In this document: positions 1 through 42,936 of the stretch, piece after piece
Position numbering within the stretch: the stretch's first letter is position 1
Layout of the letters: each line of letters begins with the position of its first letter
IMG/VR virus record: IMGVR_UViG_2529292919_000025
Origin: a virus
Lineage: Duplodnaviria; Heunggongvirae; Uroviricota; Caudoviricetes
DNA length: 43,511 nucleotides
Strand: one strand, 5' to 3'
Position numbers and translations under genes: made by a program
Notes under the pieces: model-generated
What the model saw: only the letters and a program-made list of their open reading frames with translations
Databases searched by the model: none
What the model was told of the DNA's origin: nothing

Positions 1-1260
1 ATGCCAAAACTCACAGATATGCAGATCCGCGCATGGATAAAGGCGGGAGACAGATTTGATGGCAAGGCAGACGGCAACGGCCTTTATATTTGCTACCCCA
101 AAAACTACACAGCCCCGTTCTGGCGATTCCGCTATAAGCTCGCAGGAAAGCAGCGGGCTATGGTTATAGGCTCTTACTCCGAACTGTCACTATCAAAAGC
201 CAGAGAAACAGCAAAAGAGCTGTCAGCCAGAGTTGCTCTTGGCTATGACGTAGCAGCAGAGAAACAGGAACGAAAAGCTGAAGCACTGGCAAAAATGGAG
301 GCTGAGAAAAACGCCATGCGTGTTTCAGATCTGGCCTCCGAATACTTCGAGCGCCAGATACTTCCGAGATGGAAACATCCCGATATCCTTCGCCGGAGAA
401 TTGATAAGGATATTAACCCCTGCATTGGGCATATGAAGGTAGAGGACGTTAAGCCACGCCACATTGACGACATGTTGAAAGGTATCGTTGACCGAGGAGC
501 ACCAACGATAGCAACAGATGTATTACGCTGGACACGCCGTATCTTTGACTACGGGATAAAACGCCACGCTCTGGAGATAAACCCTTGTTCAGCGTTTGAA
601 GTATCTGATGCTGGTGGTAAAGAGGTTTCCCGCGACCGTTGGCTAACTCGCGATGAGCTTATCAGGCTATTCGAGGCTATGCGCACCGCAAAAGGATTCA
701 GCCGCCAGAACGAACTGACATTTAAGCTATTGCTGGCACTATGCGTTCGTAAGATGGAGTTATGCGCCGCACGATGGGAAGAGTTTGATTTAGATGGTGC
801 GGTATGGCATTTGCCGGAAGAACGCAGCAAAAACGGAGACCCTATTGATATACCTCTACCTTCCCCAGCCGTTGAATGGTTGAGAGAGCTACACACCTTT
901 TCATGTAATAGCGCATGGGTGCTTCCAGCCAGGAAGATGCAAAACAGAATGATCCCACATATTCAGGAAAGCACTTTGCCCGTAGCACTGGCTAAGGTTC
1001 GCGCCGAAATGCCGGATGTGCCTAATTTCACGATTCACGACTTCCGACGCACCGCACGTACTCATTTAGCAGCGTTGGGTGTTGATCCTGTCGTGGCGGA
1101 ACGATGCCTCAATCATCGCATTAAGGGCGTAGAGGGGATTTATAACCGCCATCAGTATTTTGATGAGCGTAAAGCAGCACTGGCACAGTGGGCTGATCTG
1201 CTGGTGGCACTGGAAAGCGGAAAAGACTACAACGTAACGCCTCTCAGAAGGGCGAACTAA
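1..1260 (+). CDS. int: Tyrosine recombinase, P4-type island integrase
   Basis: 419-aa ORF starting at window base 1; C-terminal catalytic region with HDFRRTARTHL and terminal GIYNRHQY (R..H..R..Y tyrosine-recombinase pattern); N-terminal region typical of P4-family integrases. Confidence 0.85.
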   Translation: MPKLTDMQIRAWIKAGDRFDGKADGNGLYICYPKNYTAPFWRFRYKLAGKQRAMVIGSYSELSLSKARETAKELSARVALGYDVAAEKQERKAEALAKMEAEKNAMRVSDLASEYFERQILPRWKHPDILRRRIDKDINPCIGHMKVEDVKPRHIDDMLKGIVDRGAPTIATDVLRWTRRIFDYGIKRHALEINPCSAFEVSDAGGKEVSRDRWLTRDELIRLFEAMRTAKGFSRQNELTFKLLLALCVRKMELCAARWEEFDLDGAVWHLPEERSKNGDPIDIPLPSPAVEWLRELHTFSCNSAWVLPARKMQNRMIPHIQESTLPVALAKVRAEMPDVPNFTIHDFRRTARTHLAALGVDPVVAERCLNHRIKGVEGIYNRHQYFDERKAALAQWADLLVALESGKDYNVTPLRRAN

Positions 1261-1355
1261 CTGAATAGATTGAGCCTAGCTCGACGGGGCGAAAAGCGGG
1301 AAGCCTTACCGCCTGGCTCAATCACAAAATAAGGCGCAGCGTAAAAGGTGACGCA

Positions 1356-2321
1356 ATGAACGACTCTCATGAAACAACAGTGGTGCATAGAAATTTATGG
1401 CAGGAATCAGGTATTCCACCTTTGGACTACTGCACGATAGAGCGAGCATCAAAATTATTAAATTGTGAAATTGATGATATATGGCATTGGAAAGATAGAC
1501 TACATATAGACTTTTATGTCTATGCTGACTTTCTTGATTTCATTGAATCTGATGCCACCATCCACTTCAAAAAAGATGCTAATTTTATAACTGATTTATT
1601 ACTTATGTACCCAGAAGAAGTAAGGTTTACATTTCCTTTTCTTATTACCAGCGCAAGCAACGAAGTTTATATCCCAGCATCTGAAAGCGGTGCTTATGAG
1701 CTATTTTATGCACATAAACCACTGACAGTTGAAGACAGCGACAATAAAAATGTTTTTGAACAAATTGGCAAAAACTCTTTTATTGTAAGAAAATCAATTG
1801 CATGTGGATTGTTGCGTGTACGCGGTAGAACAACACGACATTATCATTCACAAGAATGTGGAGAACCATATGTGCGACTTGAAGCAACATTTGATTGTGA
1901 TCTATATAAATTCAAAATGCAAAGTTCCCAAATTCACCTGAGTAGCCTGTCAGATAAAAACATTTATATAACAAAGGCTGATTTAGAATACCTTCATGAC
2001 GCAAAGGTTAATGGAAGTTTTGACGCAGCTAAGAGCAAAAAACGATACGAAATGGCGGTAGAACAGGAACTAATACCTGAAATAAAAAATAGCAACCATA
2101 ATGCCGAGAGACATGCTGAAAACAGGGAAAAACTTTTCAAATCTGCAATATATCTTTTGTCAAAGTATCCTGATGAATGCCGTGGCAAAAAGAAAGAAAT
2201 AAGCCCTGAGAAGTGGCGGGATTGCATAGTGGCTCATAAAGACGAAATTCCACCGTTAGCAATCACAAATGAAGATGTGATTTTGAGACACTTACGTGCT
2301 GCCGCCAACGGTAAGGGGTAG
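1356..2321 (+). CDS. Hypothetical protein; AT-rich orphan island cargo gene, no recognisable motif
   Basis: 321-aa ORF, SD-like AAGGTG 5 nt upstream of ATG; visibly AT-rich compared with both flanks; stop codon TAG (2319-2321) abuts the prophage end; its probable terminator is found at 40131-40160 beyond the prophage. Confidence 0.6.
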   Translation: MNDSHETTVVHRNLWQESGIPPLDYCTIERASKLLNCEIDDIWHWKDRLHIDFYVYADFLDFIESDATIHFKKDANFITDLLLMYPEEVRFTFPFLITSASNEVYIPASESGAYELFYAHKPLTVEDSDNKNVFEQIGKNSFIVRKSIACGLLRVRGRTTRHYHSQECGEPYVRLEATFDCDLYKFKMQSSQIHLSSLSDKNIYITKADLEYLHDAKVNGSFDAAKSKKRYEMAVEQELIPEIKNSNHNAERHAENREKLFKSAIYLLSKYPDECRGKKKEISPEKWRDCIVAHKDEIPPLAITNEDVILRHLRAAANGKG

Positions 2322-2324
2322 AGT
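2319..2324. repeat. Left copy of prophage target-site duplication TAGAG(T)
   Basis: TAGAGT at 2319-2324 is identical to 40112-40117 immediately outside the other prophage end; 5-bp Mu-type duplication plus one ambiguous base. Confidence 0.55.
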
Positions 2325-2372
2325 TGATGCGCCGCGCGATAAATGCACTCTATCTTGTGCGATAAATGGCAT
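2325..2372. repeat. Prophage terminal inverted repeat, invertase-side end, with two transposase-binding-like motifs
   Basis: TGATGCGCCGCGCGATAAATGCAC...TGTGCGATAAATGGCA; the CGATAAATG motif occurs twice 23 bp apart; inverted counterpart at 40064-40111. Confidence 0.6.
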
Positions 2373-2402
2373 CCACGCGGCGTTTCATTATTTGAAAAAG
2401 AA

Positions 2403-2975
2403 TTACATTTCAGGTTGCGTTATGACAGTCCCAACAGGGTGGTAGCGGTAGATCGTTGACAGTCCAATATCATAGATAATTGCCAGCCGCTTTCTGTCAT
2501 ACCCTTTCTGGAGCAATCTTGCGATCTGCTCATGCTGCTCCTTCGTCAGTTTCGGGCGACGTCCTCCAACTCTCCCTTGTGCTCGCGCAGCAGCCAGTCC
2601 TGCCAGCGTGCGCTCAACTATCAGTTCACGCTCCATTTCTGCCAGTGCACCCATCATATGAAAAAAGAACCTTCCCATCGGAGTGCTGGTATCGATTGAA
2701 TCCGTCAGACTGCGAAAATTGACACCTTTTGCGCGTAGCTCTTCTGTGAGAGCAATGAGGTGTTTCATTCTTCTACCCAACCGATCCAGCTTCCAGACCA
2801 CCAATGTATCCCCTCTTTTAAGGCACTTTAAAGCGCGTTTCAGGCCTGGTCGTTCCGACTTGGTTCCGCTCATTTTGTCCTCAAAAATCTGTTCACATCC
2901 TGCGCACATTAATGCATTGCGTTGCAAATCTGTGTTTTGGTCATTTGCTGACACACGTATGTAGCCAATCAGCAT
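2403..2975 (-). CDS. Serine-recombinase DNA invertase, Hin/Gin/Pin/Cin family
   Basis: 190 aa; N-terminal resolvase/invertase catalytic motif (IGYIRVS...DxQ, GDTLVVWKLDRLGR) and C-terminal HTH; immediately adjacent to tail-fibre cassettes with hix/gix-like sites. Confidence 0.9.
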   Translation of the reverse strand: MLIGYIRVSANDQNTDLQRNALMCAGCEQIFEDKMSGTKSERPGLKRALKCLKRGDTLVVWKLDRLGRRMKHLIALTEELRAKGVNFRSLTDSIDTSTPMGRFFFHMMGALAEMERELIVERTLAGLAAARAQGRVGGRRPKLTKEQHEQIARLLQKGYDRKRLAIIYDIGLSTIYRYHPVGTVITQPEM

Positions 2976-3029
2976 TAAAAATACTCCCTTTTGAGTGGTT
3001 AAAGTACTGAGATAATGTGGGGAGGATTT

Positions 3030-3055
3030 GAGAGATAAACGTTGGTTTGGGGGAA
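3030..3055. other. hix/gix-like crossover site d (outer site; invertase-proximal half degenerate)
   Basis: GAGAGATAAACG-TT-GGTTTGGGGGAA; right half identical to site c. Confidence 0.55.
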
Positions 3056-3580
3056 GGCTCTGCGTTGCCCGTTGGTGTACCCGTTCCGTGGCCCTCAGCT
3101 ACACCGCCAACGGGCTGGCTGAAATGTAACGGCGCAGCATTTTCTTCTGAAGATTACCCCAAACTGGCACAGGCTTACCCCGCGAATAAATTACCGGATC
3201 TACGGGGTGAATTTATCCGTGGCTGGGATGATGGACGCGGCTTGGATGCTGGGCGTGCCTTGCTAAGTCTTCAGGATGACTCTTTTGAAGCGCACAGGCA
3301 TGAGTCCTTTTTTTATGCGGGTATTTCACGTAATGAAACCCCATTAAAAAATCTTCCAAGTTCAGACGAGATGCTGACTTTAAGTTCCACAACTAATGCC
3401 TTGTCCCCGGACGGTATTGATGCCACCAACTCGTTAATTGGTAATGACGATTACAACTGTCTTATCGAAGGGAATAAAAATAACAAACGAACAGCGACAA
3501 GACTGAGTACCAGTATTGTCGGCACAGCAGAAACACGCCCCCGCAACGTTGCATTCAATTACATCGTAAGAGCCGCATGA
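3047..3580 (+). CDS. Silent tail-fibre C-terminal cassette A (no in-frame ATG; expressed only after inversion)
   Basis: Begins with the shared GEGSALPVGVPVPWPSATPPTGWLKCNGAAFS segment and ends with the shared ETRPRNVAFNYIVRAA; track start is a TTG inside the crossover site. Confidence 0.6.
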   Translation: MGEGSALPVGVPVPWPSATPPTGWLKCNGAAFSSEDYPKLAQAYPANKLPDLRGEFIRGWDDGRGLDAGRALLSLQDDSFEAHRHESFFYAGISRNETPLKNLPSSDEMLTLSSTTNALSPDGIDATNSLIGNDDYNCLIEGNKNNKRTATRLSTSIVGTAETRPRNVAFNYIVRAA

Positions 3581-3599
3581 AAACGTTGGTTTGGGGGAA
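3574..3599. other. hix/gix-like crossover site c
   Basis: CGCATGAAAACG-TT-GGTTTGGGGGAA; exact reverse complement of site b (5135-5160). Confidence 0.6.
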
Positions 3600-4067
3600 G
3601 GCTCTGCACTGCCCGTTGGTGTGCCTGTTCCATGGCCCTCAGCCACACCACCAACGGGCTGGCTGAAATGTAACGGTGCAGCATTTTCTTCTGAAATGTA
3701 CCCCAATCTGGCAAAGGCCTACCCCACCAATAAATTACCGGATTTACGCGGTGAATTTATCCGTGGCTGGGATGATGGGCGAGGAATTGATGCGGCACGC
3801 GCTTTATTGAGCATTCAAAACGGGATGTTGGAAAAACACCGCCATATTGTTGTAGCTAACGATGGATATGACACAAAAGATGAATGGGAGTTGGCTACGA
3901 TTTTCAAAAAAACATATACACAAGGCAGGGGGCTTGATGCCACAAATACAGGAGGGAGTTTGATTCCATCACCAACGCTTCATTCACGAGGAAGTATTGG
4001 TAACACAGGTGGTAGTGAAACCCGCCCCCGCAATATTGCATTTAACTATATCGTGAGGGCGGCTTAG
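3591..4067 (+). CDS. Silent tail-fibre C-terminal cassette B
   Basis: Same conserved N- and C-terminal boundary segments as cassette A, different middle; no ATG start. Confidence 0.6.
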   Translation: MGEGSALPVGVPVPWPSATPPTGWLKCNGAAFSSEMYPNLAKAYPTNKLPDLRGEFIRGWDDGRGIDAARALLSIQNGMLEKHRHIVVANDGYDTKDEWELATIFKKTYTQGRGLDATNTGGSLIPSPTLHSRGSIGNTGGSETRPRNIAFNYIVRAA

Positions 4068-4073
4068 TTATAT

Positions 4074-4685
4074 TCAACTGGCTGCTGCCAGTGGTATTTC
4101 CGGCAAGTTGATATCTGGTACCATGTTTATATCCATTGCGTTCAGCGCGTCTATATAATCCAGCACGGCATTAAGCCGGGTGGTTTCTGCCTGCGTCAAC
4201 TTCCGCCCGGCCTGCAACTTCAACTGAATCAGACTTATGGAAGCCATTGCCGCATCAGCCAGTGACTGGCGCTTGGTTTCTGCCGCTTCTACTGCGGCAC
4301 GATGTTGTGCCTCAGTATCTGTCACCCATTTTTCACCATCCCATTTATCGTATGGTGTTAACGGGGCGATAGTGGTTGTAGTTTTCGGGTAGTCACCCAG
4401 CGCCGTGATTTCTTCGGTGTTTCCCGTGTCAGTGCTATAGACGGTTTCACCACGATGGTCTGGCGCATACTCCCATGAACTTAAATTCTCCGAACGGCGG
4501 ATAGCATAGCCCGCTTTATGTGCGCCCGGGGCATCTAAACAGGAATTTGCCGGAATACCGACACCCACAGCAAGATATTCAGTTGATTCGGAAATATATT
4601 CCCGTGTCTCACCATCATAGTTATAAACGACGATGTTTCCTGCCTGTACGGCAATAAGGTCATCATTTAATATCGCGTTATTCAT
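4074..4685 (-). CDS. Tail-fibre assembly protein (Tfa/U-like chaperone)
   Basis: 203 aa; start ATG overlaps the stop of cassette C (TAATG); typical Tfa-like sequence and position after a tail-fibre C-terminal segment. Confidence 0.75.
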   Translation of the reverse strand: MNNAILNDDLIAVQAGNIVVYNYDGETREYISESTEYLAVGVGIPANSCLDAPGAHKAGYAIRRSENLSSWEYAPDHRGETVYSTDTGNTEEITALGDYPKTTTTIAPLTPYDKWDGEKWVTDTEAQHRAAVEAAETKRQSLADAAMASISLIQLKLQAGRKLTQAETTRLNAVLDYIDALNAMDINMVPDINLPEIPLAAAS

Positions 4686-5143
4686 TATGCGGTTCTCACA
4701 ATATAATTGAAGGCAATATTGCGTGGGCGGTTTTCATTCCCATCTGAGGATTCCGTTCTGTATTGACTGGTAAATCTACCGTTAATTGCACCTTGCCGGA
4801 CGGCGTTATCTGTCGACAACAGACTATCCCCTCTTTTGTCATTTGGCACCAGTACCGTGTTATCCCACGCATCCCATGACCGAATATTATGATAATGACT
4901 TCCTGTTAACCACCCCTGCATGCTTAAGATGCCCCTTCCGGCATCCACCCCGCGCCCATCATCCCAGCCACGGATAAACTCACCGCGTAAATCAGGTAAT
5001 TTTAACGTTGGGTAAACCTTTGCCAGATTTGGGTACATTTCAGAAGAAAATGCTGCACCGTTACATTTCAGCCAGCCCGTTGGTGGTGTGGCTGAGGGCC
5101 ATGGAACAGGCACACCAACGGGCAGTGCAGAGCCTTCCCCCAA
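4685..5143 (-). CDS. Silent tail-fibre C-terminal cassette C (translationally coupled to the assembly gene)
   Basis: Shared N-terminal GEGSALPVG... and C-terminal RPRNIAFNYIVRTA; lies directly downstream of the expressed fibre gene on the same strand. Confidence 0.6.
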   Translation of the reverse strand: MGEGSALPVGVPVPWPSATPPTGWLKCNGAAFSSEMYPNLAKVYPTLKLPDLRGEFIRGWDDGRGVDAGRGILSMQGWLTGSHYHNIRSWDAWDNTVLVPNDKRGDSLLSTDNAVRQGAINGRFTSQYRTESSDGNENRPRNIAFNYIVRTA

Positions 5144-5160
5144 ACCAACGTTTTCATGCG
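5135..5160. other. hix/gix-like crossover site b
   Basis: TTCCCCCAAACC-AA-CGTTTTCATGCG; resembles hixL/gix consensus as I recall it (TTCTTGAAAACCAAGGTTTTTGATAA). Confidence 0.6.
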
Positions 5161-6650
5161 GCTCTTACGATGTAATTAAATGCAACGTTGCGAGGGCGAG
5201 TTTCTGTACCTACATTTCCACTAATTTCACCAAACCGTTTTACATTACGAGAGCTAATGGCTCGTAGTGAGGAAGGCACATTAAGACCGGGTTCGTCCGT
5301 TTTAACTATTCCCCCGTCACCGTATGTAGCCAGTATTCCTGGGTTTACTCCTTCCCGTGCACTTCCTGCGGCGAGTCCGTCCCCTGTCCATAATTCCATA
5401 TAGTGTGCATGGTCCAAAATTGTGTGTGGCTGCCAATTAAGCAAAGCGCGACCAGTATCAATCCCGCGACCGTCATCCCAGCCACGAATAAATTCACCGC
5501 GTAAATCAGGCAATTTATTGGTCGGGTAAGCCTTTGCCAGTTCCGGGTATTCTTCAGCAGAAAAAGCCGCACCGTTGCATTTCAGCCACCCCGTTGGCGG
5601 CGTGGCTGAAGGCCATGGAACGGGCACACCAACGGGCAGCGCCGAGCCTTCCCCTAAACCAAGGTAATTGAGGACTTCTTTTATACTGCCCATAGCGATA
5701 ATAGCGCGACCAATAGCTGTAAGGGTTGTCAGTGCTGCGCGGTCTGCTCCGGTAAAATAAGGCAACCGATCTGCTGCAGTGGCAAGTCCTGCCAGAGCAG
5801 TGAGCGTGGCATCTGCCGGTTGTTTTCCGTTTGCCAGATCGTATGCAGCCTTGACCGCTTTCGGTGTGGCGGCCAGTATTTCAGACGTGCTGTTGATGTC
5901 ACTGCTCAATTGTACGGTGCCTTTTGCCGTCAGCGAGGCAGCAGGCACTCCCGTTATCTGACTCCACGGGTGAGTGTGGCTGACGGGCGCCTTGCCGGCT
6001 GCAAGGTCGTATGCAGCCTTGACCGCCTTCGGTGTGGCGGCCAGTATTTCAGATTGACTGTCCGTGGCGCTGCTCAGTTGTACGGTGCCTTTTGCCGTCA
6101 GTGAAGCCGCAGGCACTCCCGTTATCTGACTCCACGGGTGAGTGTGGCTGGCAGGCGCCTTGCCGGCTGCAAGGTCGTATGCAGCCTTGACCGCCTTCGG
6201 CGTGGCAGCCTCAGTTTCTGATTGACTGTCCGTGGCGCTGCTCAGTTGTACGGTGCCTTTTGCCGTCAGCGAGGCAGCAGGCACTCCCGTTATCTGACTC
6301 CACGGGTGAGTATGGCTGACGGGGGCCTTGCCGGCAGCCAGGTCATATGCAGCCTTGACGGCCTTTGGTGTGGCGGCCAGCGTTTCAGAGGTGCTGTTGG
6401 TGGCACTGCTCAGTTGGGTGAACCCCTTAGCTGTCAGTGTCGCGTCCGGGTGGTTACGGGAACGTACGTGTTCAGCCAGTGACTGTGCGGCTTCCTCCGT
6501 TTTTTTCTTCAGCCATTTCGTCCTGTTTGCCAGTTGCCGGGGGGCTCGATTTGATATCCCGTCTGCACCACCCAGAACCGGATCTGATGTCTCCAGTTGA
6601 TAGATATTTTCTTCCCACTTTTCTGTTTCATTCAGGTTTCCCATAATCAA
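5154..6650 (-). CDS. Tail fibre protein (constant N-terminal part fused to currently expressed cassette D)
   Basis: 498 aa; N-terminal tail-fibre anchor region, 56-aa shaft repeats, then ...NYLGLGEGSALPVG crossover segment and a variable C-terminus ending ETRPRNVAFNYIVRAA. Confidence 0.85.
   Translation of the reverse strand: MIMGNLNETEKWEENIYQLETSDPVLGGADGISNRAPRQLANRTKWLKKKTEEAAQSLAEHVRSRNHPDATLTAKGFTQLSSATNSTSETLAATPKAVKAAYDLAAGKAPVSHTHPWSQITGVPAASLTAKGTVQLSSATDSQSETEAATPKAVKAAYDLAAGKAPASHTHPWSQITGVPAASLTAKGTVQLSSATDSQSEILAATPKAVKAAYDLAAGKAPVSHTHPWSQITGVPAASLTAKGTVQLSSDINSTSEILAATPKAVKAAYDLANGKQPADATLTALAGLATAADRLPYFTGADRAALTTLTAIGRAIIAMGSIKEVLNYLGLGEGSALPVGVPVPWPSATPPTGWLKCNGAAFSAEEYPELAKAYPTNKLPDLRGEFIRGWDDGRGIDTGRALLNWQPHTILDHAHYMELWTGDGLAAGSAREGVNPGILATYGDGGIVKTDEPGLNVPSSLRAISSRNVKRFGEISGNVGTETRPRNVAFNYIVRAA
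5649..5674. other. hix/gix-like crossover site a (inside the expressed fibre gene; fibre-constant-side half degenerate)
   Basis: TTCCCCTAAACC-AA-GGTAATTGAGGA; left half matches site b; encodes the LGLGEG junction. Confidence 0.55.
5811..6443. repeat. Tandem ~168-bp coding repeats (about 3.5 copies) in the tail-fibre shaft
   Basis: Protein repeat TAKGTVQLSSATDSQSE..ATPKAVKAAYDLAAGKAP.SHTHPWSQITGVPAASL recurs; accounts for the repetitive antisense ORFs at 5820-6482. Confidence 0.6.
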
Positions 6651-7225
6651 CTGCTCCCGTGGTTATAACTGCCATCATGGATGGCGGTATTGTTATAGCG
6701 AATGGCCACAGACTGATACTCCAGGCTGGCCAGATGGCAGCGGGCCGGTGCAAATGCAGCCAGCGTCTGACGCAGCATCGCGGCCTGATCGTTAGTAATG
6801 GGCTGTTTCAGAATAACGCGATAAACTGCCCAGGCGGCTGCATCTCCATGAACAAACAGTCCGTTATAGCTGCGATTGCCGTCGTAACTGAGACGACCTG
6901 TGCCTTCAATCAGATCCACTTCACCAAAGCCAAAACGGCGGATAACTTCCCGGATTGACCACGGCGTCCCTTTATACCGGTGCAGTTCGATGGCTGCTTT
7001 TATAAGCATGCGGCGAACATCGTCCGATTCCGCCAGCTCCCAGCCATCGCCAGACAGTGAGAACTGCTCGCCCAGCCATGGCAGCGCGGAACTGTCGACG
7101 ATATCGACGAGAAAGACCATCAGTACGCTCAGGTCGATGTTATCCAGCCGTCCTGCCAGTCTTCCCAGCGTCCTGAGACTGATATCACCCTCAAGCGGTG
7201 GCGGGAGTTGTAATGGCTCAGTCAT
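6647..7225 (-). CDS. Baseplate/tail protein (P2 gpI-like, Mu gp48 position)
   Basis: 192 aa between the baseplate J-like gene and the tail fibre; overlaps both neighbours by 4-8 nt. Confidence 0.6.
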   Translation of the reverse strand: MTEPLQLPPPLEGDISLRTLGRLAGRLDNIDLSVLMVFLVDIVDSSALPWLGEQFSLSGDGWELAESDDVRRMLIKAAIELHRYKGTPWSIREVIRRFGFGEVDLIEGTGRLSYDGNRSYNGLFVHGDAAAWAVYRVILKQPITNDQAAMLRQTLAAFAPARCHLASLEYQSVAIRYNNTAIHDGSYNHGSS

Positions 7226-39980: not shown

Positions 39981-40117
<137 letters not shown>

Positions 40118-40130
40118 TAGCTAACTATTC

Positions 40131-40235: not shown

Positions 40236-40265
40236 GTAAGCGACTCGTCAGAACCGTATTGATAT

Positions 40266-41837
40266 TTACTGAGAGCTCAGATCAACTTTCCAGGGCAACA
40301 GATCGCGTACCCGGTTTGCCGGCCAGTCCTGGATATGTTCAATGACGTAACGCAGCCACTTTTCTGGCTCCACATTGTTCAGACGGCATGTGCCGATCAG
40401 CGAGTACAACACCGCCGCATGTTCACCACCGCTGTCGGAACCCGCGAACATCCAGTTTTTCCGGCCTACGGCCACTCCCCGTAAGGCGTTCTCTGCGATG
40501 TTGTTGTCGATTTCCACCCAGCCATTACTGCAGTACACGTTCAGTGCATCCCACTGTTTCAGCAGGTATGCGAACGCTTTTGCCGTATCTGAGTGACGCG
40601 ACAGTGTTTTCATCTGTTGCTGTATCCAGTCATACAGTGACTGCATCAGTGGCGCGGCTCTGGCTTTTCTTGCCGCCAGACGCTGTTCTGCTGAACAGCC
40701 CCGGACCTCTGCCTCGATGGCATACAGTTCACCGATACGCTGCAGGGCTTCCGTGGTGATGTAGGTGGGCGCTCTTGCATGCACATCGTGGATTTTTCTC
40801 CGGGCATGAGCCATACACGCGGCTTCCGTTATTCTGCCGGATTCGTATAACGCCCGGTAACCACCGTAAGCATCGGCCTGAAGCACACCGCTGTAACCGG
40901 CCAGGTGATTTTGTGGATGGATACCTTTCCGGTCCGGACTGTACGCGAACCAGACCGCCGGGGGCATCTGTGAACCGGCGTTACGGTCATCACGGACGTA
41001 GACCCACAGCCGGGCTGTCCGGGTTTTACCGCTGCCCGGCTCCTGGACCGGGACGGGGATATCATCAGCATGGACTTTACCGGGCATCAGCACATACTGG
41101 CGCAGGACGTCATACAGCGGCTCCAGCAGTTCAGCAACAGCACCTGTCCAGCGCCCCAGTGTGGCACGGCTCAGCTCCACTCCCTGACGACGGTATATTT
41201 CTGACTGGCGGTATAACGGCAGATGGTCTGCATATTTCCCGGTGACAACATGGGCCAGAAGCCCCGCTCCGGCATAACTGCGTGCAATGGGTTTTGAAGG
41301 TACTGGTGCCTGCACGATATGGTCGCACCGGCAACAGGCCTGTTTCGGACGTTGTGTTTCGATAACCTTAAAGGCGCTGCTGATAAGCTCCAGTTGCTCT
41401 GACACATCACATCCCAGAGAACTGAGTTCACCACCACAGGCAGGACAGCATTCCTCTTCCGGCCGGATAACCCGGGTTTCACGGGGAAGTGAGGCCGGTA
41501 ACGGTTTACGGGCTGAAGACTGGCGCAGGGCGGATGGCAGTACCGGGTCATATTGCTCACCCAGCGTTTCCGCCATTTCTTCCTGAAGTGCGCTGATTCG
41601 CTCCTGTGCTTCCTGTATCTGCCGTTCGGTTTTTGCACGAAGTTTTTCTGAGCTTTTACCGAACTGCATACGTTGCAGTTTCGCAACCAGCGCCTTCAGC
41701 CGGTTGATTTCGGAAGCATAAGCCGCCACCCGCTGTGAGAGCAGGCGGTTGTATTCAGCCATCTGGCGGATGGTGTCCTGTTGCGTCTGCAACAGTGCCC
41801 GCAGGCGGGCGTTCTCATGAGCAAGTGAGGTGTCCAT
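40266..41837 (-). CDS. tnpC: IS66-family transposase TnpC
   Basis: 523 aa, N-terminal coiled coil/leucine zipper, Cys-rich zinc-finger-like segment, IS66 transposase sequence character. Confidence 0.8.
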
Positions 41838-41856
41838 ATCCTCACTTTACAACGGG

Positions 41857-42204
41857 TTATATGCGGATTCCAGCGCGTTCCGTTCGTTTCGGGTGCTTCC
41901 AGTTGATACCTTCAAGAAGCATGGATAACTGAGCCGGAGTAAGGTGCACCTTGCCGTCACGGGTGACTGGCCAGACGAAGCGGCCCCGCTCCAGGCGTTT
42001 GGTGAAGAGGCACAGTCCGTCACTGTCAGCCCACAACACTTTTATCTGGTCACCCCGGCGTCCGCGGAAGATGAACAGGTGTCCGGAGAACGGGTCATCC
42101 TTCAGGACGTTCTGAACTTTTGATGCCAGGCCGTTAAAGCCATTTCGCATATCGGTGATACCTGCAACCAGCCAGATACGCGAACCTGCAGGGAGAGATA
42201 TCAT
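41857..42204 (-). CDS. tnpB: IS66-family TnpB (Orf2)
   Basis: 115 aa with sequence character of IS66 Orf2 proteins. Confidence 0.75.
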   Translation of the reverse strand: MISLPAGSRIWLVAGITDMRNGFNGLASKVQNVLKDDPFSGHLFIFRGRRGDQIKVLWADSDGLCLFTKRLERGRFVWPVTRDGKVHLTPAQLSMLLEGINWKHPKRTERAGIRI

Positions 42205-42366
42205 CAGTGGCTGCTCCCTTTTATTTCGCGGATAAGTGTCTGTAATAACGCCGGCGTCAGTTTACCTTTAAGCCTGAGAGTTCCGGCCGGCAGAACCAGC
42301 TCACAACACAGACTGTCGGACGGTGTATTTATCTGCTCTGGTTCCTGTGCGGGGGCCGGGATTTTA

Positions 42367-42786
42367 TTATTCCGGCTCCGGCGTTAACGTCACGGGAAGC
42401 AGTGCCGGCATATTTTTTCCGGAAGGCAGCAGGCCACCTTTCCGGTATTGATGGCGCCAGTTGAAGAGCAGGTTATCGTTGATTCCGTTTTCCCGGGCGA
42501 TCTGCGCCACACAGGCTCCGGGCTGCAGTGACTGCTCCACTAAGGCGATTTTAAACTCATAAGGGAAGTTGGGCCGCCGGGGACGTTTTTTTACCACGGG
42601 GGCTTCGGATATAACGGTGCTTTCAGGACGTACGACTGGTACCGTGGAAAATTGTCCGTAAAGGCAGGCATCAAGTTCCTGCTCCGACATGCCTGCGGGC
42701 AAAGGCCACGAAAGGCCAGCTCTCCGAAAGCGCACGAACATACTACAAACTGTTGATTTTGGTACACCCAGGCGACGCCCGGCCAC
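42367..42786 (-). CDS. tnpA: IS66-family TnpA (Orf1); true start uncertain
   Basis: C-terminal RRPNFPYEFKIALVEQSLQPGACVAQIARENGINDNLLFNWR HTH pattern. Confidence 0.6.
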   Translation of the reverse strand: MAGRRLGVPKSTVCSMFVRFRRAGLSWPLPAGMSEQELDACLYGQFSTVPVVRPESTVISEAPVVKKRPRRPNFPYEFKIALVEQSLQPGACVAQIARENGINDNLLFNWRHQYRKGGLLPSGKNMPALLPVTLTPEPE

Positions 42787-42936
42787 AACCCGGGGTAAAT
42801 GTTCTTCAAAGTGTAAGACGTAAAGCTTCAGTGATCCAGGTCCGGTGTTTCATACGATAGTGTCCATTAAAAATGATGGACATTATTTTTGTAGAGCCGG
42901 AGGAAACAGACCAGACGGTTTAAATGAGCCGGTTAC

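What the first reader, a model, noticed from the sequence alone, without database searches (positions are those of the whole stretch)
2403..5674. Multi-cassette tail-fibre shufflon: four crossover sites, four alternative receptor-binding C-termini, one invertase
Instead of the two-state Mu G segment, there are four hix/gix-like 26-bp sites (3030-3055, 3574-3599 in one orientation; 5135-5160, 5649-5674 in the other). Each lies exactly at the conserved GLGEGSALPVG junction. Three start-less cassettes (A, B, C) and one expressed cassette (D) share conserved boundary segments but have different middles. Only the two outermost sites have a degenerate outward half. A single tail-fibre assembly gene is translationally coupled to cassette C, so successive inversions would be needed to place other cassettes in frame with the constant part and re-orient the chaperone. 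This predicts at least four host-range states.
Basis: partly seen in the sequence, partly recalled or inferred. Interest (0 to 1): 0.65.

Follow-up and report, generated by a model that had tools for sequence, protein, structure and literature searches.

The report
Four-cassette phage tail-fibre inversion switch
A Mu-like prophage of E. coli carries a Gin-type DNA invertase and four crossover sites that can shuffle four alternative tail-fibre tips; the feature is real, but it is an ordinary member of a multiple-inversion system known since 1990 (Min of plasmid p15B) and already shown to invert in sister prophages.

Summary
All share the core TT and lie in frame at the NY-L-GLGEG junction. They head four intact Collar-domain cassettes, next to a Gin-like serine invertase and a single tfa gene.

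- Related E. coli loci carry the same cassettes as signed permutations, with breakpoints at the sites.
- The outward half-sites stay in place and the head halves travel with their cassette.
- All four cassettes are under purifying selection (pN/pS 0.06-0.20).
- Published long-read and PCR data show inversion in two sister elements. EC958 Phi2 has the same outer half-sites. The EPEC P2-like prophage has the same C-tfa-B unit.

The layout is one double-headed segment (C-tfa-B) plus two single-headed cassettes (A, D). It gives 12 DNA isomers and four fibre C-termini.

Corrections:
- All four outward half-sites are degenerate, not only the outermost two.
- A and B need one inversion. Only C needs two.

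This is a new member of a known kind. Relatives have 3 to 9 sites. The one open point is how cassettes A, B and D fold when the only tfa is uncoupled or antisense.

The parts
2403..2975 (-). Gin/Min-type serine DNA invertase, 190 aa
   Evidence: Pfam Resolvase (9e-50) plus HTH_7. Matches Mu Gin structures 4m6f/3uj3 at E 1e-92 over residues 1-181. The catalytic Ser9 is present. K46/R47/K50 and Q150/R153/L154 correspond to Hin K47/R48/K51 and Q151/R154/L155, which PMC3798978 says are conserved only in Fis/enhancer-dependent invertases.
2866..2954 (-). Inferred Fis-dependent recombinational enhancer inside the 5' end of the invertase gene (approximate limits)
   Evidence: Inference. Across four divergent invertase genes, the identical-codon fraction at conserved residues is 0.63-0.69 in codons 1-40 against 0.30-0.49 elsewhere. 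Fis-consensus matches fall at gene positions 71 and 94, as in Mu gin. The s1 crossover point (central TT) lies 67 bp from the invertase start codon, the same distance as between the annotated G-segment boundary (gixR) and the gin start in Mu. No pair of Fis sites with 48-bp spacing was found.
3030..3055 (+). Crossover site s1, next to the invertase, heading cassette A
   Evidence: GAGAGATAAACG TT GGTTTGGGGGAA. It is identical to the EC958 'Phi2_3prime' site, which PacBio data showed to recombine (PMC4134206 Table 3).
3044..3580 (+). Cassette A, silent, 178 aa from GLGEG to the stop codon
   Evidence: Collar domain 1.8e-14. Open frame. pN/pS 0.10-0.13 against homologues that are 97-98% identical.
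3574..3599 (+). Crossover site s2, heading cassette B
   Evidence: CGCATGAAAACG TT GGTTTGGGGGAA. The outward half is formed by the end of cassette A plus its stop codon.
3588..4067 (+). Cassette B, silent, 159 aa, convergent with tfa
   Evidence: Collar domain 8e-15. pN/pS 0.06-0.16. It is found fused to the constant part in L006, L010 and L012.
4074..4685 (-). The only tail-fibre assembly gene (tfa), 203 aa
   Evidence: Caudo_TAP 8.9e-31. Its ATG overlaps the stop codon of C. The identical protein occurs in Mu-like and P2-like prophages. It is unrelated in sequence to Mu U.
4685..5146 (-). Cassette C, silent here, 153 aa, coupled to tfa
   Evidence: Collar domain 1.6e-14. It is fused to the constant part in HSP60 (L001/L005). 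pN/pS 0.19.
5135..5160 (-). Crossover site s3, heading cassette C
   Evidence: Exact reverse complement of s2.
5154..5660 (-). Cassette D, currently expressed, 168 aa
   Evidence: It is the C-terminal part of the fibre ORF. Collar domain 5e-15. pN/pS 0.13-0.20. It matches a solved short tail fibre, 9cuy, at E 1e-14 from the collar to the C-terminus.
5649..5674 (-). Crossover site s4, at the junction of the constant part and the cassette
   Evidence: TCCTCAATTACC TT GGTTTAGGGGAA. The outward half is identical to EC958 'Phi2_5prime'.
5661..6644 (-). Constant N-terminal part of the tail fibre (ATG at 6644, 3 nt after the gpI stop codon)
   Evidence: Phage_fiber_2 repeats, four stretches, 3e-72. 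It follows P2-I/J/W/V-type baseplate genes.

Best explanation
The locus is a Min-type (Din-family) multiple DNA-inversion switch in the tail-fibre gene of a 37.8-kb Mu-like transposable prophage of E. coli.

Proposed mechanism:
1. The Gin-like serine invertase binds as dimers to two of the four 26-bp sites that lie in opposite orientation.
2. It is probably activated by Fis bound to an enhancer in the first ~120 nt of its own gene.
3. It cuts both sites at the central TT, rotates one pair of half-sites by 180 degrees and religates. Everything between the two sites is inverted.
4. Every site lies at the same codon position (…NY-L-GLGEG…), so the constant 5' part of the fibre gene is always joined in frame to whichever cassette faces it.

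Layout: const | D | [C-tfa-B(reversed)] | A(reversed) | invertase. That is one double-headed segment plus two single-headed cassettes. It gives 12 interconvertible DNA isomers and four fibre C-termini. B and A are reached in one step and C in two.

Shuffling in the lysogen population means that induced phage carry different receptor-binding tips.

Status of the steps:
- Shown here: the anatomy, the intactness of the cassettes, selection on them, and natural isomers with breakpoints at the sites.
- Shown by others for sister elements: actual inversion.
- Inferred: activity in this strain, dependence on Fis, and the effect on host range.
For: Anatomy and significance.

Invertase: E 1e-92 to Gin, with the catalytic Ser and the Fis-contact residues. 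There is extra synonymous constraint in codons 1-40.

Natural isomers:
- 13 loci are signed permutations of shared cassettes.
- L004 and L005 differ by a 2,038-bp block that is bounded by the two sites, 99.95% identical and inverted relative to the flanks.
- L003 and L010 share the same host junction but have a different cassette order.
- Outward half-sites stay with the backbone and head halves move. D's variant head GGTTTAGGGGAA is joined to TCCTCAATTACC in the window and L009, and to GAGAGATAAACG in L006 and L012. This places the crossover within a short interval (about 7 nt) around the central TT, bounded by the last base of the outward half and D's variant base in the head half.

Isomer count: breadth-first search gives 12 isomers. 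The formula 2(n+1)! reproduces the four variants seen with three sites (PMC4272514).

Selection: pN/pS is 0.06-0.20 for A, B, C and D.

Experiments by others:
- EC958 Phi2 has 99.3% nt identity in the invertase and 100% in gpI. PacBio reads showed inversion between sites with the same outward halves as s4 and s1 (PMC4134206).
- The EPEC P2-like prophage carries B (100%), C (95%) and Tfa (99%). Its four variants were confirmed by PCR.
- In FRphi, deleting gin locks the tail-fibre shufflon, and only one of its three tips infects the tested host (PMC13418256).
Against: - No read-level data exist for this strain, so current activity is inferred.
- No pair of Fis sites with the canonical 48-bp spacing could be identified.
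- A const-A junction on this Mu-like backbone was not found in 5,426 complete E. coli genomes. The only other Mu-like loci with A (L003, L010) have a one-T core at A's site, which would be out of frame.
- The single tfa is coupled only to C and is antisense to the fibre gene in 6 of 12 isomers. No promoter signal rises above chance. It is therefore unclear whether fibres ending in A, B or D assemble efficiently.
Confidence: 0.9

Rival explanations
1. The four cassettes are a frozen record of past shuffling. In this strain the arrangement is fixed, for example because the invertase is not expressed or the prophage is defective, so no phase variation occurs now.
For: There are no population data for this strain. 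Some relatives show decay. EC958's fibre gene is annotated as fragments. L003 and L010 each have two sites with a one-T core. The prophage sits beside an IS66 insertion.
Against: The invertase ORF is full length and 99.8% identical at the nucleotide level to those of loci found in other arrangements. All four sites have intact cores and all cassettes are open. The nearly identical invertase of EC958 Phi2 gave an alternative-orientation contig during ordinary culture (PMC4134206).
Confidence: 0.07
2. The isomers arise by RecA-dependent homologous recombination between the ~230-bp inverted cassette heads, not by site-specific recombination.
For: The heads are 84-91% identical over 210-290 nt. 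That is long enough for some homologous exchange.
Against: Crossovers map to the core. Whole heads travel with their cassettes, and homology ends exactly at the central TT. Alignments to a synthetic const-A junction break at query positions 233-239, which is the site. Deleting gin abolished rearrangement in FRphi. Homologous exchange would leave mosaic heads, and none was seen in the L004/L005 pair (one mismatch in 2,038 bp).
Confidence: 0.03
3. Cassettes A, B and C are decaying pseudogene fragments left by duplication. Only D is a working fibre tip.
For: They lack start codons. Annotation pipelines sometimes mark such fragments as partial.
Against: There are no frameshifts or stop codons, and the C-terminal motif is conserved in all. 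pN/pS is 0.06-0.20. B and C are fused to the same Mu-like constant part in other genomes, and A is fused to the constant part of a P2-like fibre.
Confidence: 0.02

Closest known systems
Min multiple-inversion system of plasmid p15B (Sandmeier, Iida, Arber 1990-1992). Described in PMC6109161 and cited in PMC4134206. Details of site number are from my own memory.
   Same: A serine Din-family invertase, 26-bp crossover sites inside a tail-fibre gene, one constant 5' part and several alternative 3' cassettes. The topology is one double-headed segment plus single-headed segments. The formula 2(n+1)! gives 240 isomers for six sites, the figure I recall for p15B. P1/p15B-type phage-plasmids carry homologues of cassettes B, C and D at 87-98%.
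   Different: This locus has four sites rather than six, and sits on a Mu-like transposable prophage rather than a P1-like plasmid. The invertase is 84% identical in protein to that of a P1-like plasmid. The p15B sequence itself could not be compared here.
Phi2 prophage of E. coli ST131 EC958 (Forde et al. 2014, PMC4134206)
   Same: The same prophage family. gpI is 100% and the invertase 99.3% identical at the nucleotide level. The outward half-sites are the same, TCCTCAATTACC and GAGAGATAAACG. Inversion was seen directly in PacBio reads.
   Different: EC958 has three sites and three different cassettes (F, G, H), with a Tfa only 58% identical. The paper's Table 3 lists only the two outer sites.
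Three-site 'shufflon' in a P2-like prophage of EPEC E2348/69 (Goldberg et al. 2014, PMC4272514)
   Same: The same C-tfa-B unit. B is 100%, C 95% and Tfa 99% identical, and the head half-site and TT core are the same. Four variants were confirmed by PCR, as the model predicts for three sites.
   Different: It has a P2-type backbone and a 199-aa invertase about 83% identical in protein. It has three sites rather than four.
G segment / Gin of phage Mu
   Same: The invertase is about 75% identical. The site lies 67 bp from the invertase start codon in both. The head half GGTTTGGGGGAA resembles Mu's GGTTTACAGGAA. The host-range logic and the phage lifestyle are the same.
   Different: Mu has two sites with core TC, two variable parts and a chaperone for each (U, U'). 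This locus has four sites with core TT, Collar-type cassettes and one tfa unrelated to U.
FRphi tail-fibre shufflon of Enterobacter (PMC13418256)
   Same: A gin-dependent shuffle of three tail-fibre C-termini, with a demonstrated effect on infectivity. The authors mention related loci with up to six paralogues.
   Different: The phage and host are different. Sequence relatedness to this locus was not tested.
R64 / IncI shufflon (Rci)
   Same: Multiple inversions select one of several C-termini of an adhesin (PilV).
   Different: It uses a tyrosine recombinase and 19-bp sfx sites. The resemblance is in function only.

Membership tests
Din-family (Gin/Cin/Pin/Hin/Min) DNA inversion system | A small serine recombinase with a catalytic Ser near residue 9-10 and a C-terminal HTH, closely related to Gin or Hin | tested here: met
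   Resolvase plus HTH_7. E 1e-92 to Gin structures, with Ser9 present.
Din-family (Gin/Cin/Pin/Hin/Min) DNA inversion system | 26-bp crossover sites made of two imperfect 12-bp inverted half-sites around a 2-bp core that is identical in partner sites | tested here: met
   All four sites are 12+2+12 with core TT. The conserved half is GGTTT(G/A)GGGGAA and the outward halves keep AAACG or TTACC next to the core. They match the sites and consensus tabulated in PMC4134206.
Din-family (Gin/Cin/Pin/Hin/Min) DNA inversion system | A Fis-dependent recombinational enhancer, normally in the 5' end of the invertase gene | tested here: inconclusive
   The invertase-specific Fis/enhancer contact residues are conserved. 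Synonymous conservation is raised in codons 1-40. Fis-consensus matches fall at the same positions as in gin. No site pair with 48-bp spacing was identified, and there is no binding data.
Din-family (Gin/Cin/Pin/Hin/Min) DNA inversion system | The segment is actually found in both orientations | tested here: met
   Met for the element family, through natural isomers with breakpoints at the sites and published read and PCR evidence. It cannot be tested for this particular strain with these tools.
Min-type multiple inversion system (tail-fibre 'shufflon') | More than two crossover sites, overlapping invertible segments, and one constant 5' gene part joined in frame to alternative 3' cassettes | tested here: met
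   Four sites, two per orientation, with an in-frame junction at every site. There are 12 reachable isomers and four C-termini.
Mu G segment proper | Two gix sites flanking Sv-U and S'v-U', each variable part with its own chaperone | tested here: not met
   This locus has four sites and one tfa. The Tfa shows no detectable similarity to Mu U. The cassettes are Collar-type. Only the fibre's N-terminal repeats resemble Mu S weakly (5yvq/8ju3, E about 5e-6).
R64-type shufflon | The tyrosine recombinase Rci acting on sfx repeats | tested here: not met
   The only recombinase adjacent to the locus is a serine recombinase.

The most novel reading that the evidence does not exclude
The switch may have two layers. 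The only tfa lies inside the double-headed segment and is translationally coupled to cassette C alone. The 12 DNA isomers would then differ in two ways: which tip is fused to the fibre, and whether Tfa is made. Tfa is coupled in 2 isomers, co-transcribed but uncoupled in 4, and antisense in 6. Two things could follow. Either Collar-type tips A, B and D fold without a dedicated chaperone, or Tfa is a detachable add-on or adhesin used only with C. Phenotypic states would then exceed the four C-termini. Loci with one tfa for three to nine cassettes, as seen here, would then point to a class of chaperone-independent fibre tips.
Probability: 0.12. Interest if true: 0.5.

Novelty: new member of a known kind. 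Interest (0 to 1): 0.25.

Why it matters
The locus is a clean, correctly read example of a programmed multiple inversion that diversifies phage host range. It is not a new mechanism.

Practical value:
- Such loci are often mis-annotated as several 'phage tail protein' genes or as pseudogenes.
- They cause assembly ambiguity.
- They show that one cassette pool is shared by Mu-like, P2-like and P1-like elements of E. coli. This matters for predicting prophage host range and for engineering phage or tailocin specificity.

The one biologically open point is how several tips are served by a single chaperone gene that can itself be inverted.

Tried and rejected
- Same-insertion isomers. I looked up the exact 321-aa flanking protein to find sister strains with this insertion. 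All ten places have the uninterrupted target, so this insertion is rare and gave no isomers. It did fix the prophage ends.
- Predicted const-A junction. I searched for it in 5,426 complete E. coli genomes. No contiguous match was found, and alignments stop at the crossover point.
- Fis sites. I scanned for two sites 48 bp apart in the invertase gene. No convincing pair was found in the window sequence. I replaced this with a test of synonymous constraint.
- Promoter and terminator scan of 2300-6800, to explain tfa expression in inverted isomers. Nothing rose above the shuffled expectation.
- Solved-structure search with Tfa. No hit.
- Original p15B papers and Johnson's review (PMC53420, PMC206102, PMC4384473). 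They are not held, so the p15B details rest on memory and on secondary citations.
- Exchange of the C-tfa-B unit between phage backbones. I asked whether it has breakpoints exactly at the sites. The identity blocks run slightly past the sites into the conserved cassette tails, so the test cannot discriminate.
- Structure prediction of the four tips. I did not run it. A monomer model of a trimeric fibre tip would not bear on any claim made here.

Full report
**Observation**

- ORFs and domains. On the minus strand lie a 190-aa Resolvase+HTH_7 protein (2403-2975), a Caudo_TAP tail-fibre assembly gene (4074-4685), a start-less Collar-domain ORF (4685-5146, cassette C) and a tail-fibre gene of about 496 aa (5154-6644). 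The fibre gene has four Phage_fiber_2 repeat matches and a C-terminal Collar domain (cassette D). On the plus strand lie two more start-less Collar-domain ORFs, A (3044-3580) and B (3588-4067).
- Repeats. The four cassette heads are repeats of about 230 nt at 84-91% identity. The tails are repeats of about 50 nt at about 80% identity.
- Sites. Read in cassette orientation they are s1 GAGAGATAAACG-TT-GGTTTGGGGGAA, s2 = s3 CGCATGAAAACG-TT-GGTTTGGGGGAA and s4 TCCTCAATTACC-TT-GGTTTAGGGGAA.
- Chance. A 24-nt core pattern occurs three times against 0.00 expected.
- Frame. Exchange at the central TT always recreates ...N-Y-L-G-L-G-E-G.
- Cassette structure. The four cassettes share residues 1-75 almost perfectly, an invariant HxH and the end ETRPRN(V/I)AFNYIVR. 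Their middles cannot be aligned.

One sub-claim fails. All four outward half-sites are equally degenerate, at 4-6 of 12 matches to the ideal palindrome. This is not a feature of the outermost two only.

**Context**

The element is a Mu-like transposable prophage.

- It encodes an rve transposase, an AAA+ MuB-like protein, Gam and a Mu-type portal. P2 I/J/W/V-type baseplate genes precede the fibre gene.
- Comparison with an uninterrupted target (L015) sets the ends at window 2325 and 40112, a length of 37,788 bp. The termini are TGAT...ATCA and TAGAGT is duplicated at the two flanks.
- The prophage is inserted in a P4-like integrase island next to yicC in E. coli.
- As in Mu, the invertase is the last gene. 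The s1 crossover point lies 67 bp from its start codon, the same distance as between the G-segment boundary at gixR and the gin start.

**What it is**

The invertase matches Mu Gin structures at E 1e-92, about 75% identity. It has the catalytic Ser9. It also has the residues that McLean et al. (PMC3798978) describe as conserved only in Fis/enhancer-dependent invertases. These are K46/R47/K50 and Q150/R153/L154 here, matching Hin K47/R48/K51 and Q151/R154/L155.

I could not find a canonical pair of Fis sites. However, across four divergent invertase genes the fraction of identical codons at conserved residues is 0.63-0.69 in codons 1-40 and 0.30-0.49 elsewhere. This fits an overlapping cis element in the place where the Gin and Hin enhancers lie. 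That location is from my own knowledge.

**Evidence that the segments really move**

An exact-sequence look-up of the Tfa protein returned E. coli contigs carrying the same tfa with three to six cassettes. Mapping sites and cassettes shows that each locus is a signed permutation of shared cassettes around an invariant unit, C>tfa><B.

- L004 and L005 differ by a 2,038-bp block. The block is bounded by the two crossover sites, is 99.95% identical and is inverted relative to flanks that are 99.5% identical.
- L003 and L010 have the same host junction but different cassette orders.
- Outward half-sites stay with the backbone and head halves travel with the cassette. D's variant head GGTTTAGGGGAA is joined to the fibre's TCCTCAATTACC in the window and L009. 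It is joined to the invertase-side GAGAGATAAACG in L006 and L012. This confines the crossover to a short interval (about 7 nt) around the central TT and argues against homologous recombination within the heads.
- None of the cassettes is decayed. All are open, and pN/pS is 0.06-0.20 for A, B, C and D.

**Published experiments on sister elements**

- EC958 Phi2 (Forde et al. 2014, PMC4134206). PacBio reads of E. coli EC958 assembled the tail-fibre segment of prophage Phi2 in the alternative orientation as a separate contig. The tabulated sites are TCCTCAATTACCTT GGTTTAGGAGAA and GAGAGATAAACGTT GGTTTGGGGGAA. Their outward halves are the same as those of s4 and s1. EC958 Phi2 is the same prophage family, with gpI 100% and the invertase 99.3% identical at the nucleotide level.
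- EPEC E2348/69 (Goldberg et al. 2014, PMC4272514). The authors found a 'shufflon' with three inverted repeats and four PCR-confirmed variants in a P2-like prophage. That locus carries cassette B (100%), C (95%) and Tfa (99%) of the window.
- FRphi (PMC13418256). This Enterobacter phage has a gin-dependent tail-fibre shufflon in which only one of three tips infects the tested host. The paper notes relatives with up to six paralogues.

**Mechanism and state space**

I modelled the locus as const | D | [C-tfa-B(reversed)] | A(reversed) | invertase and allowed inversion between any oppositely oriented pair of sites. A breadth-first search reaches 12 isomers.

- D is expressed in 4 isomers, A in 4, B in 2 and C in 2.
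- B and A are one inversion away (s4 x s2, s4 x s1). C needs two.
- The general count is 2(n+1)!. This gives 4 for three sites, as observed in EPEC, and 240 for six sites, the number I recall for p15B Min.

The layout is therefore the Min layout. PMC6109161 summarises Min as a serine-recombinase shufflon that generates variable tail fibres.

P1-like phage-plasmids carry the same module. One of them, L014, has nine sites and homologues of B (96%), C (87%) and D (98%).

**Open point**

There is only one tfa. It is coupled to C, it is antisense to the fibre gene in 6 of the 12 isomers, and no promoter signal rises above chance. It is unrelated in sequence to Mu U.

Whether A, B and D need it is unknown. 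Its co-variation with C across loci could be explained by physical linkage alone.

A const-A junction on this backbone was not found in 5,426 complete genomes. In L003 and L010, A's site has a one-T core.

**Verdict**

This is a new member of a well-known kind, with direct experimental precedent in near-identical elements. It is of low to moderate interest.

Noticed in passing
window 2325-40112 (flanks 2319-2324 and 40113-40118): The element holding the switch is a 37,788-bp Mu-like transposable prophage. It encodes an rve transposase, an AAA+ MuB-like protein, Gam and a Mu portal. Its ends are TGAT...ATCA and it is flanked by a duplicated TAGAGT. The uninterrupted target is seen in ten other E. 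coli genomes. It is inserted into a P4-like integrase island next to yicC (window 1-2324 holds the integrase and an unknown 321-aa ORF).
   Followed up: yes
window 40236-42936: An IS66-family element (a 523-aa DDE_Tnp_IS66 transposase plus two small upstream ORFs). Its inverted repeat starts GTAAGCG and it has an 8-bp target duplication GCATGAAC. It is inserted in the same island, 123 bp beyond the prophage end.
   Followed up: partly
window 4074-4685 and 4685-5146: There is a single tfa for four cassettes, translationally coupled only to C. In 6 of the 12 predicted isomers it is antisense to the fibre gene. Relatives have one tfa for three to nine cassettes. How the other tips fold is unexplained.
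   Followed up: partly
window cassettes A 3293-3301, B 3837-3845, C 4888-4896(-), D 5402-5410(-) (approximate): An invariant His-x-His lies just after the collar domain in all four cassettes (AHRHE, KHRHI, SHYHN, DHAHY). It resembles the metal-binding HxH motifs of T4 fibre proteins, a comparison drawn from memory.
   Followed up: no
L003 3994 and 6585; L010 2518 and 3516: In two independent assemblies of a six-cassette relative, two of the six sites have a one-T core (AAACG-T-GGTTT). They would be out of frame and probably cannot recombine with TT sites, so those cassettes look locked.
   Followed up: partly
L014 (plasmid NZ_CP138414.1) 3599-8559: A P1-like phage-plasmid carries nine crossover sites and cassettes with one tfa. 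The cassettes include homologues of the window's B, C and D. In theory this allows 2 x 8! = 80,640 isomers.
   Followed up: partly
window 3583-5151 versus L007, L008, L011 and L025: The C-tfa-B unit is about 99% identical at the nucleotide level over the whole unit (Tfa protein 99-100%) between this Mu-like prophage and P2-like prophages. Their invertase genes are only 73% identical in nucleotides and their fibre constant parts differ. This indicates recent exchange of the invertible module between unrelated phage backbones.
   Followed up: partly
window 2856-2975 (invertase codons 1-40): Synonymous sites are markedly more conserved here than in the rest of the gene across four divergent invertases (0.63-0.69 against 0.30-0.49 identical codons). 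This fits an embedded recombinational enhancer.
   Followed up: yes
window 5675-6644 and fibre genes of L003-L012: The constant part of the fibre consists of tandem Phage_fiber_2 repeat units. Total fibre length among Mu-like relatives varies from 370 to 537 aa. This suggests gain and loss of repeat units, and so variation in fibre length. EC958's copy is annotated as broken fragments.
   Followed up: no
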